A DNA stretch of 64,000 nucleotides from Endomicrobiales bacterium (GTDB lineage: Bacteria > Elusimicrobiota > Endomicrobiia > Endomicrobiales > JALOBY01), in contig CAWCNJ010000003.1 of assembly GCA_963796955.1 (NCBI GenBank), forward strand, positions 96,546-160,545, written 5' to 3'. How positions within the stretch are numbered: the stretch's first letter is position 1; every line of letters starts with the position of its first letter. A program made the position numbers. Below, one piece after another: positions 42,801 to 48,800 of this stretch.

Positions 42801-45800
42801 TTTATCGGAGGAATTATGTCAGAACTAAGAAAAGATCCTATCACTGCCAGGTGGGTTATCATTTCCTCCGAAAGGGGAAAGCGACCCTCTGAATTCTGCG
42901 AAACGGATGAGATAACCAGCCCCAAGGCCTGCCCCTTTTGCCCCGGCCATGAAGCCATGACCCCGCCCGAGATAGCCGCGATCGGTCCGGCAGGCCGGTC
43001 TCGGAATACGGCCGGTTGGGATATTCGTATCGTGCCGAATAAGTTCCCCGCGCTCAGCGTTGACATTCAAACCTCGCGCCAGGGCGAAGGTATGTACGAC
43101 AGGATGAGCGGCGTCGGCGCCCACGAGGTTATCATAGAGACGAACGATCATTTGCAGCGCTTCCATGAATTCAGCGACAAACATATTGAAGATATTTTGT
43201 GGCTGTACCGAGAGCGTATCATAGACCTGAAACACGACACGCGCCTTGAATATATGCTGCTGTTCAAGAATTCCGGTTCAGCCGCCGGCGCCACTCTTTC
43301 ACACCAGCACAGCCAGCTGATAGCGACCCCGGTAGTGCCTAAAAGGGTGCGCGAGGAGATCGCGGGCGCCAAAAGCTATTATGAATACAAAGAGCGCTGT
43401 GTGTACTGCGATATCATCCATCAGGAATTATCCAATCCCCTGCGCATCGTCGGCGAGAACGAGCATTTTATCGCCCTGTGTCCTTTCGCTTCCCGTTTTC
43501 CTTTTGAAGTATGGGTCCTGCCTAAAAACCACTCTTCCCATTATGAGAACCTGCAAAGATACGAGGCGGCAAGCCTTGCCCAGCTGTTGAAGAACGTTTT
43601 GGCCCGCCAGGCGACCGTGCTGGATAATCCGCCGTTCAATTTCATCATCCACAACACCCCGCCCAAAGAATACAGCACGCCGCACTATCACTGGCATTTG
43701 GAAATAATGCCGAAATTGACGCGTGTCGCAGGCTTTGAATGGGGAACCGGTTTTTACATCAACCCTACGCCGCCGGAAGAAGCGGCTAAATTCCTGCGGG
43801 ACGCCGAAGTATGAACATCGTGATGGCGGCCGGCGAGTGCGTGCCGTTCATTAAGGTCGGGGGCCTCGCGGATGTTGTCGGTACCCTTTCGATCGCCTTA
43901 AAAGAAAAGAAGCACGATGTGCGCGTCTTTCTACCCCGCTACCAGAAGATCGACAGAAAAAAATACCAGCTTAAAAAATTGCCGCAGCGCGTTATGATAC
44001 CTTTAGGGAATGGTACCTGGCATGTGGCGGCGCTCAGCACCACGAAGATAAAAGGCGTGACGTTCTATTTTGTGGAGAACGGCCATTTTTTTGACCGGCC
44101 CGAGGTTTACGGCGACGCGGGCGGCGATTATTCCGATAATCACGAGCGCTATATTTTCTTCCAGCGGGCCGTGCTGGAATTCACCAAGGCCCTGCAGTTT
44201 AAACCCGACACGATCCACTGCCACGACTGGCAGACCGGACTAATCCCGGTGTATCTGAAAACCGTGTATAAGAACGATCAGTTCTACGACCAGACTGCGA
44301 CGGTATTCTCTATCCATAACATCGCCTATCACGGCAGGTTCCCGGCCGAAGTAATGGAGACGGCCGGCATACCCTGGAGTGAATATACCTTCGACAAAAT
44401 GGAACACTTCGACACGGTGAACTTCCTGAAATCAGGTATCAATTACGCCGATATGATAGCGACCGTCAGCCCCAGCTACGCCGAGGAAATACAGACGCCG
44501 CAATACGGCTGCGAACTGGATCCGGTAATTACCAAAAGGAAAGACCGGCTGGTAGGCATACTTAACGGCATCGATTATACGTACTGGAACCCTTCCTCAG
44601 ATGAGATGATCGCTGCCACCTTTGACGTTAAAAAGCCGGAGGGAAAAGAGACCTGCAAACGCCGGCTGCAGGCCATGGAGGGTTTTAAGCAGGATCCCTC
44701 CGCGTTCCTTATCGGTTGCGTCTCACGCTTTGATGCACAAAAAGGTTTTGATCTTATCGTTGAGTCGATTCACCATCTCATGAGACAGAACACGCAGCTG
44801 GCGGTGCTCGGCAGGGGCAGCCGTGTCCTTGAAGAAGCAATGGGGGAAATGGCGCGCGTGTACCCCGGACGCATAACGGTCTGCAATGAATTTAACGAGT
44901 CGCTGGCCCATAAGATATATGCCGGATCCGATGCCTTCCTGATGCCTTCACGGTTTGAGCCCTGCGGGCTCAGCCAGATGATCGCGCTTGCCTACGGGAC
45001 CGTGCCGATCGTGCATAAAACCGGCGGGCTGTCCGACACGATAACCCACTTTTCCGTCTCTACGGGCCTTGGCAACGGTTTCGTCTTCAATTATCCCGAA
45101 CGGATGGAGTTGACGGGCGCTTTCGATGTTGCGGAACGCACGTTCCGCGATAAACCTGTCTGGAAAAAACTTCAGCAGAATTGTTTCGCGTCCCTATTCC
45201 CATGGGACCGTTCCGCCGACCGGTATGTCGAACTCTACCACACCGCTAAACTCTTCAAACATACCCGCAGATGAAAAAAAACCTTCTGTCACCGCCGCTG
45301 GCAGCCGCCGCGCTGTGCGTGCTTATCGTTGTCGGTTGGGCCGGCTACACCCTGGTGCAGCGTTCAGCTGCCGAAAGAAAAAACAATACCGTCGAACTAT
45401 GCCTTGACTGGTCGGAGCTCTCCGACCTGTGTTACCGCAACAATTACCCGGTCGGGACGTTCCTGGGCAGGGCGCAGGCGATCGGTGTCGCGAGCGTTTC
45501 CCTAGACGAAGAGACGCTTGGTTCTCTGGTCCGTTCCGGGAAAGTTTTGTATTTCGCACGCAATGAATACCAGAATCTGAAACTGCTGGACCTGCTGGAG
45601 CCGGGCGCCAACATTCAGGGAGAATCCCTGCTTACCGCCGATACTATTTTTGCCGAACAGCTGAAACGGCAGTTGGCGGCCCGTCATCATCTTCCGCTCA
45701 AGGCGGGCACGTACGGTAAATATACCGTCCTGTCCCTGAACTTTCAGGAGGGTAAGGCGCCCTCTTTCTGGAATGAGTCGATCCCCCTTGGCGTCTCTCC

Positions 45801-48800
45801 CGATAAGGTGCGCGCTATCACCGTCGCAGATCTTAAAGTGGTTATCCGGCCCGCGAACCTTAATGACGCGTATGTCTGTTTTCAGGATACCGATACTTCA
45901 TTAATATCGGGTTTCATGAGCGACGGCAAAGAAGTACCGGGCTATCCGGGCGCCGAGCAATTGTTCGCCATGCGGCTGCGTCAGTACGGCATAAAACAGG
46001 TGCCGCTGGAGTTTTCTCAGGTGTACGGTTCCGCCGCCCTGGAAGCCGCGGCGCCGGAGCTCATAGTGCGCGGGCATACGGTCACCGTTCCTGAAATGAA
46101 TAAGAACCTGAGCGGAACGTTCTGGATCGCCCGTTTCCGCCGCGCGGCACGGGAGCGCGGCCTGCGCTTTATGTATGTTCATCTGTGGGCCAACAAGAAC
46201 ACGGAAGATAATTTAATGTATGTGCGTTCTCTCGCACAACGTTTAAAGAACGACGGCTTCATTCTCGGCGAAACCCGTCCCCCCGCGTATCCGGCACGGG
46301 GGCGCCTGCCCTCTGGTCGCATCTTGCCTTGTTGCTGGCGTGCACGGGCCCCATAGCCGCATTTATGGTTGGTAAGCAGCTGCCGGGAAGACCCGTTCTG
46401 CAATATGCCATGGTAAACCTGGTTACCTTCGCGACGGCGCTGACCGTGGGCGCGTGTCTGTATGATGTTCTTTTCATGCAGAAAGTCGCCGATGTGCCGG
46501 GCGTCAAGCTCGCCATGCTGCTGCCGCTCGCTGTAGCCGCCTTCATTGTCTATAAACCTGAACAGATAAAAGCCGCCATGCAGTTCCAGCTGAAAGTCTG
46601 GCATCTGCTGGCCGCGTTGGCGGCGATAGGCGTGGCCGTGATAATGCTGGCGCGCAGCGGCAATTATTCTGCCGATTGGATGCATCCCGACAGCGGTCTG
46701 CGTTCAACGCTGGAGAACCTGCTTACGATCAGACCGCGCACCAAGGAATTACTGATCGGCCAGCCGCTGCTCTATCTCGGTTTCGCCTTCGGCTCTCCTC
46801 TTTTAACCCTGATCGGATTCATCGGCCAGATCTCGATAGTCAATACCTTTATGCACGCCCATTCGCCGCTCGTTGTTTCAGTGATACGCACCGTTTACGG
46901 ACAGGTCTTAGGGTTGCTTGCGGGCCTTGCGGCGGCTTTTATGTACCGGCGCTTTTCCGGCAATAAAAAATGAAATTCCTTATCTGCGGCTATTATGGTT
47001 TCGGCAACGCGGGCGATGAGCTGTTGCTTTCTTCAACGATACAATTACTGCATGCCGCGCATCATGCTCCCGATATCTGCGTATTATCAAAAGAGCCCCG
47101 CCAGACGATGAAAGAACATCCCGTGCACGCCGTCTCAAGAAACAATCCCTTCGCGATCATTCATCAAGTCACAACGGCCGAACGGGTCATTATCGGCGGC
47201 GGGGGATTACTGCAGGATTTCACCGGTCCGCTGACGCTGTACTATTACCTGGCGATAGCGTTCGCAGGGATCATATGCAAAAAACGAACCGTTTTTCACG
47301 CTATCGGCGCTAATGAACTTAACGCTTTTAACGCGCGCCTGTGCAGCTTTGTATTGAACCGTTGTGCAGTTGTGTCGGTGCGGGATAAACGGTCCGCAGA
47401 ATTGCTGAGCCGCTGGGGTGTTGAAATTTCCAAAATTTCACTGACGGCCGATCCTGTGTTCGCCCTCTCCGCTATCTTACAACCTCAGCCGCGATCGGTG
47501 GTGTTGCTTGTCCTGCGGCATAATTCAAATATCTCACGTTACCTTAAGGCTCTGCCTGCCGTTGAAAAGCTGGCCGCGGCAAAGATCGTGGTCCTGCCCT
47601 TTCAGCCCGGCCGCGACGGTACTATCAGCATAGAATTGTCCAGAGCCGTGCCTGAGAGTGTGAGCCTGGGCCTTTGGCACGACCTGCCGAGCCTGGTGTG
47701 CCGGTTCGACGAATGCGCTCTGGTGATCGCCGAGCGCTATCACGCCCTGGTACTGGCGGCCATGCGGGGTGTGCCGGCGATCTGTGTTTCCGACGATGAT
47801 AAACTGATCCGCTTCGCCCGCGAATGCGACTACCCGGTGCTGCGGCCATCCGACAATTTCGATCCGACGGCCATTATCGCCCTGGTTGAACGCCTCTGGA
47901 AATACCGCGAAACTTTGAGAACCACCCTCCTGCGCAAGTCTGCCGCCCAAAACGAACTCGCCAGAAAAAATCCTGCCCTGGTATAACACACCTGTGAAAA
48001 TCGTCAGCACAAGGGTGAGCCTTCCTATGTAAGGTCTGCGCCTGATTTTGAATAATAATACTATGAGAGGATATTTTCTTAAACTATTATTATTTTATAT
48101 ATTGGTACTAACGTTCATCCCGAATATCGGATGGGCCTTTAACTATGTTTTGGGCGATGATCTATACCCGTATTCCACGGAGCCCATGCCCGGCAAAGGC
48201 GCATCGTACGTTGACACGAAATATAATACCAAAGTTACGCGCATGACCAATAGCGCCTTGGAACACGGCTCCGCCTGGGGGAGTGTAACAGAATATTCAA
48301 CCTTCAGTCCTGAATCTTCTGACGGCAACTGGCTTGTTGTGGAAGGTATCTCAAGCCTTTCACAATCGAGCGGCTATTACTTATACACCGCCGCGGGCGG
48401 CTATGTAGGTAGTTTGTCGCCATACATACAATTGTGGAACGGACAGGAGCCCGAGGTCAGGTGGGATAATTCCGGTGTGCACCCGTCCTGGCTGTATTAC
48501 CGTAAGGACAAACAACTGAGATATTATGACGTTGCCGATCGCTCGGACCACCTGGTGCATGATTTCTCGGCTGATTTTCCCGGGTATGATGCGACCTATT
48601 TTGTCTGGAACGGTGACGAAGGGAATTGTTCTGAAAACTCCCGGTACTGGGCGTTTATGCTCGGGACGTCAAATACGAATATAATCCTGACATTCACCTA
48701 CGACAAGACGCAGGATAAAGTGATCGCTTCGCATCCGGTGAACGGTCACGCTCCGAACAATGTGTTCATGTCCAAAAGCGGCGATTATGTGTATGTCGCT

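What a model noticed while it worked through the whole genome (the two positions that open the first line are those of the whole stretch)
45271..47986. CsaB pyruvyltransferase with DUF5693 but no SLH domain in a Pal-tethered diderm phylum
The genome encodes DUF5693 (split by a likely assembly frameshift) and CsaB next to ftsX-envC, plus a TagA/WecG enzyme and an LCP ligase elsewhere: the kit for a pyruvylated cell-wall polymer typical of Terrabacteria. Yet no SLH domain, the only known reader of that polymer, is found in the phylum sample, and this genome has Pal.
Evidence so far: In the same 61 genomes: CsaB TIGR03609 in 19 (17 over cut-off, call 170), DUF5693 over cut-off in the same 19, TagA/WecG in 20, 18 of them shared, SLH PF00395 in 0, with 4 of 14 controls ringing. 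All gut-symbiont genomes of families f2 and f17 lack the set. csaB lies directly before ftsX-envC in 9 of 24 relatives' loci. pal is g01670.
(Added by a program. Inside this text positions count along the whole contig: contig position 96,546 is position 1 of the stretch shown here. "Call 12" and the like, gene names such as g00115 and contig names such as C1 are that model's own, and its searches are not shown. The text may have been shortened before it was handed on; [...] marks where a part breaks off. The agent that wrote the report below was given it as the finding of a first reader that could run no searches.)

Follow-up and report, generated by a model that had tools for sequence, protein, structure and literature searches.

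The report
Wall-sugar pathway without its reader
A little-studied group of Gram-negative bacteria keeps the genes for a pyruvate-tagged cell-wall sugar of the kind other bacteria use to anchor their outer layers, yet lacks the anchoring proteins that normally bind it, so the sugar probably does a different job here.

Summary
Confirmed and extended. The window encodes DUF5693 (one-base frameshift, probably an assembly error) and CsaB (TIGR03609 over cut-off, catalytic residues kept) before ftsX-envC-ctpA. The phylum is Elusimicrobiota. Of 251 genomes, 55 (23 of 34 families) have strong CsaB plus the DUF5693 membrane domain; 54 of these have TagA, 52 LCP, 53 MnaA, 55 LpxC, 54 a Pal-like protein. 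SLH passes cut-off in 0 of 251, against 45 of 50 other DUF5693-bearing genomes. The genes sit in housekeeping gene orders partly shared with Bacillota; Elusimicrobial copies form one branch, not nested in a donor; losses are clean deletions. DUF5693 folds as a deacetylase-like barrel on a membrane domain without PDB match; its invariant Arg/His motif decays where csaB, tagA and LCP are missing. Best reading: a peptidoglycan-linked pyruvylated ManNAc-GlcNAc glycan, the Terrabacterial kit, kept in an LPS/Pal diderm without SLH. Polymer, role and inheritance from the last bacterial ancestor are inferred. Corrections: losses are not confined to small-genome families; this assembly lacks the tagO-mnaA segment. 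An earlier scan note saw these genes in another genome only as neighbours. New variant of a known kind.

The parts
45271..46356 (+). DUF5693, N-terminal part: one membrane helix and a predicted (beta/alpha)7 deacetylase-like barrel; reading frame leaves the protein near 46300
   Evidence: PF18949 1-307, 119.9 bits; tblastn of intact relatives; model and fold search of an intact relative
46297..46301 (+). Run of five G at the frameshift; probably a sequencing or assembly indel
   Evidence: similar frameshifts in clpB-, EF-G- and GAPDH-like genes of this assembly (names recognised by eye)
46329..46973 (+). DUF5693, C-terminal membrane domain with intact RPRxKE and NTFxHxHxP motifs
   Evidence: PF18949 400-606, 159.7 bits; motifs present
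46970..47986 (+). csaB, polysaccharide ketal-pyruvyltransferase; Y9, F11, R138, R183, R256, H258, K278
   Evidence: TIGR03609 225.3 > 213.1; residues, mapped by motif and spacing to those tested in PMC10435577
48048..49799 (+). Inserted secreted protein with a weak T9SS-type C-terminal tail; not part of the conserved order
   Evidence: TIGR04183 E 0.008; no homolog in 40 relatives' loci; paralogs on contig C11
49866..50591 (+). Short ftsX (241 aa)
   Evidence: PF18075 E 4e-4; TIGR00439 E 6e-8
50591..51754 (+). envC-like coiled-coil plus M23 protein
   Evidence: PF01551; NF008644 E 6e-14; start
51781..53049 (+). ctpA, S41 protease with PDZ
53060..54184 (+). yibQ-like divergent polysaccharide deacetylase
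   Evidence: PF04748 211.6 bits
42816..45274 (+). galT and glgA, the conserved upstream neighbours that mark the deletion site in genomes that lost the kit

Best explanation
DUF5693-csaB are two parts of a dispersed, long-inherited pathway for a pyruvylated wall glycan. Inferred steps: TagO loads GlcNAc-phosphate on the lipid carrier, TagA adds ManNAc made by MnaA, CsaB adds ketal pyruvate from PEP in the cytoplasm, the unit crosses the membrane (flippase not identified), DUF5693 handles the lipid-linked pyruvylated unit on the outer face through its invariant Arg/His cluster (polymerase or transferase is my first guess, flippase second), and the single LCP ligates the glycan to peptidoglycan. 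Shown: genes, scores, residues, gene order, co-loss, predicted fold. Inferred: every chemical step, the product, its site and its role. I put about 0.7 on a peptidoglycan-linked pyruvylated glycan and about 0.3 on the hydrolase-steering role.
For: Co-occurrence in 55 genomes of 23 families: TagA 54, LCP 52, MnaA 53; TagA in 0 of 85 f2, 0 of 70 f20, 0 of 18 f24, 0 of 4 f27, 0 of 10 f29; LCP in 0 of 11 genomes tested from those families. Closest solved relatives: TagA 7mpk E 6e-44, TagV/TagU/TagT. CsaB residues kept. In named Paenibacillus loci the order is DUF5693-csaB-tagA-tagO-(SLH protein), matching the P. alvei SCWP locus orf1-csaB-tagA-tagO near slhA (PMC6030368); DUF5693-CsaB and CsaB-TagA fusions exist. 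G049 (same family, 99% complete) lacks csaB, DUF5693, tagA and the glyA-linked tagO together. RPRxxE and N[TS]FxH motifs in 39 of 39 kit loci and 0 of 3 relic DUF5693 of kit-less families; f30 keeps the motif and loses most of the barrel. SLH 0 of 251, 0 of 5 related genomes, own HMM from 58 SLH domains finds none in G000. LpxC 70 of 70; Pal-like 54 of 55 (28 over cut-off).
Against: No biochemical data. The kit genes are at four separate loci, so their linkage rests on co-occurrence among relatives, which are not independent. MnaA is also in 4 of 11 kit-less genomes; LCP persists in G049 without TagA or CsaB, and G003, G017, G211 have TagA and LCP without a strong CsaB. Many kit genomes have one MurJ only, so no dedicated flippase is seen. 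A lipid A acyltransferase lies downstream of tagA in several loci, which fits an outer-membrane glycolipid as well. ftsX-envC stay when the kit is deleted and the stalk-domain amidase occurs in 233 of 251 genomes regardless of the kit, so division does not depend on it. The window's own CsaB is unusually diverged (32.6% to relatives against 46.5% among them).
Confidence: 0.65

Rival explanations
1. The glycan still tethers or anchors proteins, through a very divergent SLH or an unrelated binding domain that profiles miss.
For: Kit kept in 23 of 34 families; SLH is only 44 positions; the genome has many exported proteins of no known family.
Against: The same profile finds SLH in 45 of 50 other DUF5693 genomes, including diderms with one to three copies; custom HMM and a motif scan give nothing credible in G000; CWB2 0 of 5; stalk domain does not co-vary. 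Only G000's proteome was scanned locally and it is 81% complete.
Confidence: 0.2
2. TagO-TagA-CsaB make a lipid-linked unit for an outer-membrane or protein glycan (O-antigen-, ECA- or glycoprotein-like), not for peptidoglycan.
For: All 70 genomes tested make lipid A; tagA lies near a lipid A acyltransferase in several loci; WecA-WecG start ECA in enterobacteria (recalled); an LCP can glycosylate a protein (A. oris LcpA, PMC7831098 passage).
Against: LCP tracks the kit (52 of 55 against 0 of 11); TagA scores higher on TarA than on the ECA-type model though below both cut-offs (160.9 against 114.9 bits); DUF5693 is otherwise confined to wall-polymer loci of Terrabacteria.
Confidence: 0.15
3. 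History rival: the kit came by ancient transfer from Terrabacteria into the Elusimicrobiota stem rather than from the last bacterial common ancestor.
For: No named Gracilicutes other than Elusimicrobiota among 134 true DUF5693 loci of two pattern scans (16 have no phylum); base of the tree unresolved; related rows L089/L138 do not group with the 23 Elusimicrobiota.
Against: Four unlinked loci would have to move, each into housekeeping context; nadD-(yqeK)-lcp-rsfS, tagO-mnaA and csaB near ftsX-envC-ctpA are shared with Bacillota or Armatimonadota; Elusimicrobiota are one side of a branch (SH-aLRT 96) and not nested in any sampled phylum.
Confidence: 0.4
4. In this particular genome the operon is decaying: the frameshift is real and the kit is being lost as in its relative G049.
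For: Frameshift; fast-evolving CsaB; G049 of the same family lost the genes; a gene beside lcp is in three pieces.
Against: Homopolymer site; housekeeping genes are frameshifted too; both DUF5693 halves are as conserved as in relatives (36.5 against 33.7%, 42.8 against 44.6%); all catalytic residues and motifs intact.
Confidence: 0.15

Closest known systems
Pyruvylated secondary cell wall polymer pathway of Paenibacillus alvei and Bacillus anthracis (TagO, TagA, MnaA, CsaB, LCP; read by SLH domains)
   Same: Same enzyme families with conserved residues; DUF5693 stands where P. alvei orf1 stands, directly before csaB (inferred from gene order in other Paenibacillus).
   Different: Host has LPS, BamA and Tol-Pal; no SLH protein; genes dispersed over four housekeeping loci; no second MurJ-type flippase in many genomes.
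OmpM/SLH tether of diderm Terrabacteria (Synechocystis slr0688, Thermus CsaB)
   Same: A diderm making a CsaB-modified, peptidoglycan-linked polysaccharide (10.1101/2020.03.24.006684, passages).
   Different: The SLH-porin partner is missing and Pal is present; 10.1101/2021.05.31.446380 (section 5) finds CsaB/SLH co-occurrence practically absent from Gracilicutes and does not name Elusimicrobia in its main text.
Wall teichoic acid linkage-unit synthesis (TagO, TagA, MnaA, TagTUV)
   Same: First two sugars and the ligase.
   Different: CsaB and DUF5693 follow instead; polyol-phosphate polymerases were not searched.
CE4/NodB, LamB-YcsF and DUF610 (YibQ) deacetylase-like barrels
   Same: DUF5693 residues about 37-336: Z 13.0 (1v6t, rmsd 3.9, 187 aligned), 11.8 (2nly, 3.8, 192), 11.4 (ChbG 7vi8, 3.7, 188).
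   Different: Other TIM barrels score almost as well; the barrel is largely lost in f30 while the kit stays.

Membership tests
CsaB (TIGR03609) | Score over the curated cut-off | tested here: met
   225.3 > 213.1 bits; 34 of 251 genomes over cut-off, 56 at E <= 1e-25
CsaB (TIGR03609) | PEP- and acceptor-binding residues Y14, F16, R148, R207, H308, K328 of P. alvei | tested here: met
   Y9, F11, R138, R183, H258, K278; mapped by motif and spacing, the P. alvei sequence itself was not aligned
CsaB (TIGR03609) | Pyruvylates ManNAc-GlcNAc-PP-lipid | not testable with these tools
   needs an enzyme assay
SLH / pyruvylated SCWP anchoring system | TagA and LCP encoded | tested here: met
SLH / pyruvylated SCWP anchoring system | TagO and MnaA encoded | tested here: inconclusive
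   MnaA in 53 of 55 kit genomes but not in G000; the whole glyA-tagO-mnaA-ftsZ segment is missing from this assembly; three PF00953 genes in G000
SLH / pyruvylated SCWP anchoring system | SLH-domain proteins | tested here: not met
   0 of 251 over cut-off; custom HMM negative in G000; control 45 of 50
SLH / pyruvylated SCWP anchoring system | Pyruvylated polymer bound to peptidoglycan | not testable with these tools
   needs wall chemistry
OmpM tether | SLH domain fused to a porin barrel | tested here: not met
   no SLH at all
Tol-Pal, LPS diderm | Pal with ybgF and tolB; BamA; LpxC | tested here: met
Wzy/WaaL-type (GT-C) polymerase or ligase, for DUF5693 | Shared membrane fold or profile | tested here: inconclusive
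   no clear row in fold searches; profile against one O-antigen ligase-like protein, probability 0.2%
CE4/YibQ-type deacetylase, for the DUF5693 barrel | (beta/alpha)7 barrel | tested here: met
   Z 11-13
CE4/YibQ-type deacetylase, for the DUF5693 barrel | Metal-binding Asp-His-His set | not tested
   only E245, H267, R286, E293, R294, R297 are over 90% conserved in the barrel apart from two N-terminal residues; no residue-level superposition was available
Enterobacterial common antigen pathway | WecG-type equivalog and the other wec genes | tested here: inconclusive
   NF002980 114.9 bits, cut-off 323; other wec genes not searched

The most novel reading that the evidence does not exclude
The TagO-TagA-CsaB-DUF5693-LCP wall glycan was present in the last bacterial common ancestor; Elusimicrobiota and close relatives are a living intermediate of the switch from SLH/OmpM tethering to Pal, having gained Pal, lost SLH and kept the polymer for an older SLH-independent job; and DUF5693 is the missing conserved membrane enzyme of the pathway, with a fold not yet solved.
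Probability: 0.35. Interest if true: 0.82.

Novelty: new variant of a known kind. Interest (0 to 1): 0.64.

Why it matters
The published picture splits bacteria into SLH/CsaB-tethered Terrabacteria and Pal-tethered Gracilicutes and leaves open which system the common ancestor had (10.1101/2021.05.31.446380). Elusimicrobia are an early branch among Tol-Pal bearers (PMC12204202). A complete, conserved wall-glycan kit there separates the polymer from its only known reader, bears directly on the ancestral envelope, and shows LCP-type wall ligation in an LPS/Pal diderm. Independently, the work ties an unstudied family, DUF5693, to CsaB across many phyla and gives residues to mutate in tractable hosts such as Paenibacillus or Thermus.

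Tried and rejected
Reads for the frameshift: no sequencing run was listed. Single-protein locus search with the window CsaB found one weak, unrelated locus. Fold searches of the DUF5693 membrane domain: no Foldseek row under E 0.35 and best VIA Z 7.2 over 88 residues, ordinary for helical bundles; this does not show a new fold. Protein atlas gave only DUF5693 itself for both domains. Complex prediction DUF5693 with CsaB gave no answer (score 0.00). Candidate readers: stalk domain PF07833 on the amidase looked promising in 4 of 5 genomes but is in 233 of 251 regardless of the kit; CWB2 0 of 5; NAGPA 0 of 5; repeated domains among 293 exported proteins of G000 gave barrels, T9SS-type tails, OmpA and sensor domains by my reading, nothing SLH-like. 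Dedicated second MurJ: not consistent. G238's CsaB-like hit lies in another context and was dropped from the 56 strong hits; three N-terminal-only DUF5693 hits (G176, G216, G238) were dropped from the 58. A mixture-model tree did not finish; FastTree and quick IQ-TREE were used; no AU test and no root. Literature: 'DUF5693' 0 papers; among the 30 of 41 and 20 of 76 papers listed none has Elusimicrobia with pyruvyl, SLH, LytR or TagA terms (one has a single CsaB and five Elusimicrobia mentions, not read); searches added none. The library lacks most subscription journals; Figure 2 and the supplement of the Witwinowski preprint could not be seen and may already list CsaB-like hits in Elusimicrobia.
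Full report
Observation. The window holds galT, glgA, DUF5693, csaB, an inserted secreted gene, ftsX, envC, ctpA and a yibQ-like gene in one direction. DUF5693 is split: both parts hit PF18949 and five intact relatives change frame near 46300 at a run of five G. The assembly (11 contigs, 81% complete) also has frameshifts in clpB-, EF-G- and GAPDH-like genes (names recognised by eye), both halves are as conserved as in relatives, and the motifs are intact, so an assembly error is likely but not shown. CsaB passes TIGR03609 and keeps the residues tested in P. alvei, although it is more diverged than its neighbours. The best named DUF5693 hits are titled Elusimicrobiota or Endomicrobiales, which places the phylum.

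Envelope type. G000 has Pal over cut-off beside ybgF and tolB, and BamA. LpxC and an OmpA-like domain are in 70 of 70 genomes tested (55 kit genomes and 15 others that I chose). A Pal-like match at E <= 1e-25 is in 54 of the 55 kit genomes, 28 over cut-off. PMC12204202 (passages) treats Elusimicrobia as a basal lineage among Tol-Pal Gracilicutes.

Distribution. Among 251 genomes, TIGR03609 is over cut-off in 34 and strong (E <= 1e-25) in 56; one of these (G238) lies in another context and was dropped. The other 55 all have the DUF5693 membrane domain (58 over cut-off, three being N-terminal only) and span 23 of 34 families. TagA is in 57 genomes, 54 of the 55. LCP is in 52 of 55 and in 0 of 11 genomes of five kit-less families; MnaA in 53 of 55 but also 4 of those 11. 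Exceptions: G049 has LCP and MnaA only; G003, G017, G211 have TagA and LCP without strong CsaB. Kit-less families include two large small-genome ones (85 and 70 genomes) and three with larger genomes (f24, f27, f29).

SLH. None of 251 genomes passes the cut-off; six have weak partial hits. Five related genomes reached through named loci have none. An HMM from 58 SLH domains of Bacillota loci finds nothing credible in G000. In contrast 45 of 50 other DUF5693-bearing genomes have SLH; the five without are one Elusimicrobia-titled record, one record that groups with Elusimicrobiota, one unnamed, one small Bipolaricaulota bin and Virgibacillus indicus.

Gene order. In 40 relatives' loci DUF5693 directly precedes csaB in 35 by script (three more by the gene order) and csaB precedes ftsX in 33. 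tagA directly follows smc in at least 15 of 20 loci, lcp follows nadD/yqeK in 17 of 20 with rsfS downstream in 15, and tagO directly precedes mnaA in 12 of 20, mostly after glyA; housekeeping names here were recognised by eye. That last segment, with glyA and ftsZ, is absent from the G000 assembly. The orders nadD-(yqeK)-lcp-rsfS (whole or in part in 4 of 5) and tagO-mnaA (5 of 5) recur in three Bacillota, one Armatimonadota and one related genome, and five Bacillota loci have DUF5693-csaB with ftsE-ftsX-envC downstream. In G049 and G043 glgA abuts ftsX: a clean loss.

History. A concatenated DUF5693-domain plus CsaB tree of 62 rows puts all 23 Elusimicrobiota on one side of a branch (SH-aLRT 96), recovers families and the window's order, and leaves the base open; a 109-row FastTree agrees except for one Clostridia-titled row. 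This fits presence in the phylum's ancestor; it cannot tell inheritance from the last bacterial ancestor from an ancient transfer.

DUF5693. An intact relative folds at pLDDT 94.7: one membrane helix, a barrel most like LamB/YcsF, DUF610 and ChbG deacetylase-type folds (Z 11-13) and a membrane domain of about seven helices. R459, R475, R485, P486, R487, K489, E490, N522, H526, H528 and R537 are 99-100% conserved in 150 sequences. Counting helices, and given natural DUF5693-CsaB fusions that put the C-terminus inside, they would face the periplasm (inference), as expected for binding a lipid pyrophosphate glycan. These motifs are in 39 of 39 kit loci and in 0 of 3 relic copies that stay beside glgA in kit-less f27 and f29, while f30 keeps the motif and drops most of the barrel. 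In Bacillota DUF5693 heads loci with csaB, tagA, tagO, MurJ-like flippase, LCP and SLH proteins, and in Paenibacillus it stands where orf1 of the P. alvei SCWP locus stands.

Mechanism and rivals. The best reading is a peptidoglycan-linked, pyruvylated ManNAc-GlcNAc glycan made by TagO, TagA, MnaA, CsaB, DUF5693 and LCP, working without SLH, most likely as an anionic wall mark that tunes wall hydrolases; the role is the weakest step, since ftsX-envC and the amidase persist without the kit. Rivals: an unrecognised reader, a non-wall product, ancient transfer, and local decay.

Known and new. The pathway is known from Bacillus, Paenibacillus, Thermus and cyanobacteria; the system fails membership of the SLH anchoring family on its defining reader but works like its synthetic half. 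Papers seen: 10.1101/2021.05.31.446380 (passages and section 5; figure and supplement not seen), PMC6030368, PMC10435577, PMC7831098, PMC13721041, PMC12204202, PMC8871954, 10.1101/2020.03.24.006684 (passages only). No paper in the library names DUF5693. Verdict: new variant of a known kind, interest 0.64.

Noticed in passing
window 49866-50591; G000, G065, G043, G170, G020: No FtsE over the TIGR02673 cut-off in 5 of 5 genomes, three of them 100% complete, none in the locus, and FtsX is short (241 aa, three predicted helices against four in one Bacillota copy): possibly an FtsE-less FtsX-EnvC system.
   Followed up: partly
G011, G006, G042 (f20), G072 (f27), G090, G238 (f29), G003: No MurJ match at E <= 1e-40 in these 97-100% complete genomes, while it is present in f2 and nearly all kit genomes.
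   Followed up: no
L472 4910-6898, L476 7277-8824, L477 8108-9913: Relic DUF5693 with decayed invariant motifs kept beside glgA in kit-less families, followed by a 436-466 aa gene of no Pfam family in L472 and L477.
   Followed up: partly
window 48048-49799: Inserted secreted protein with T9SS-type tail; two paralogs and two further tails on contig C11.
   Followed up: partly
window 53060-54184; L470, L471, L064-L069: The yibQ-like gene is cut to about 125-165 aa in G049, G043 and in some kit-bearing families, so its loss does not track the kit.
   Followed up: partly
L342, L392, L516, L544, L546, L577, L581; L110: Natural DUF5693-CsaB fusions (several titled Riflebacteria or Ozemobacter) and a CsaB-TagA fusion.
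   Followed up: partly
L367: Virgibacillus indicus has DUF5693-csaB but no SLH match: a culturable monoderm case of the kit without its reader.
   Followed up: no
L478-L481: Nearly all Elusimicrobiota (233 of 251) carry one stalk-domain (PF07833) match, on an amidase in the four read; not found in the G000 assembly.
   Followed up: partly
L240 7176-8094 (G000 C4): The cNMP-domain gene after lcp is in three pieces and the pilT-like gene seen in relatives is missing.
   Followed up: no
L095, L123: Records titled Clostridia whose DUF5693 groups with Elusimicrobiota or with the related rows L089/L138; L123 has the same operon order and a Pal over cut-off: probably mislabelled.
   Followed up: no
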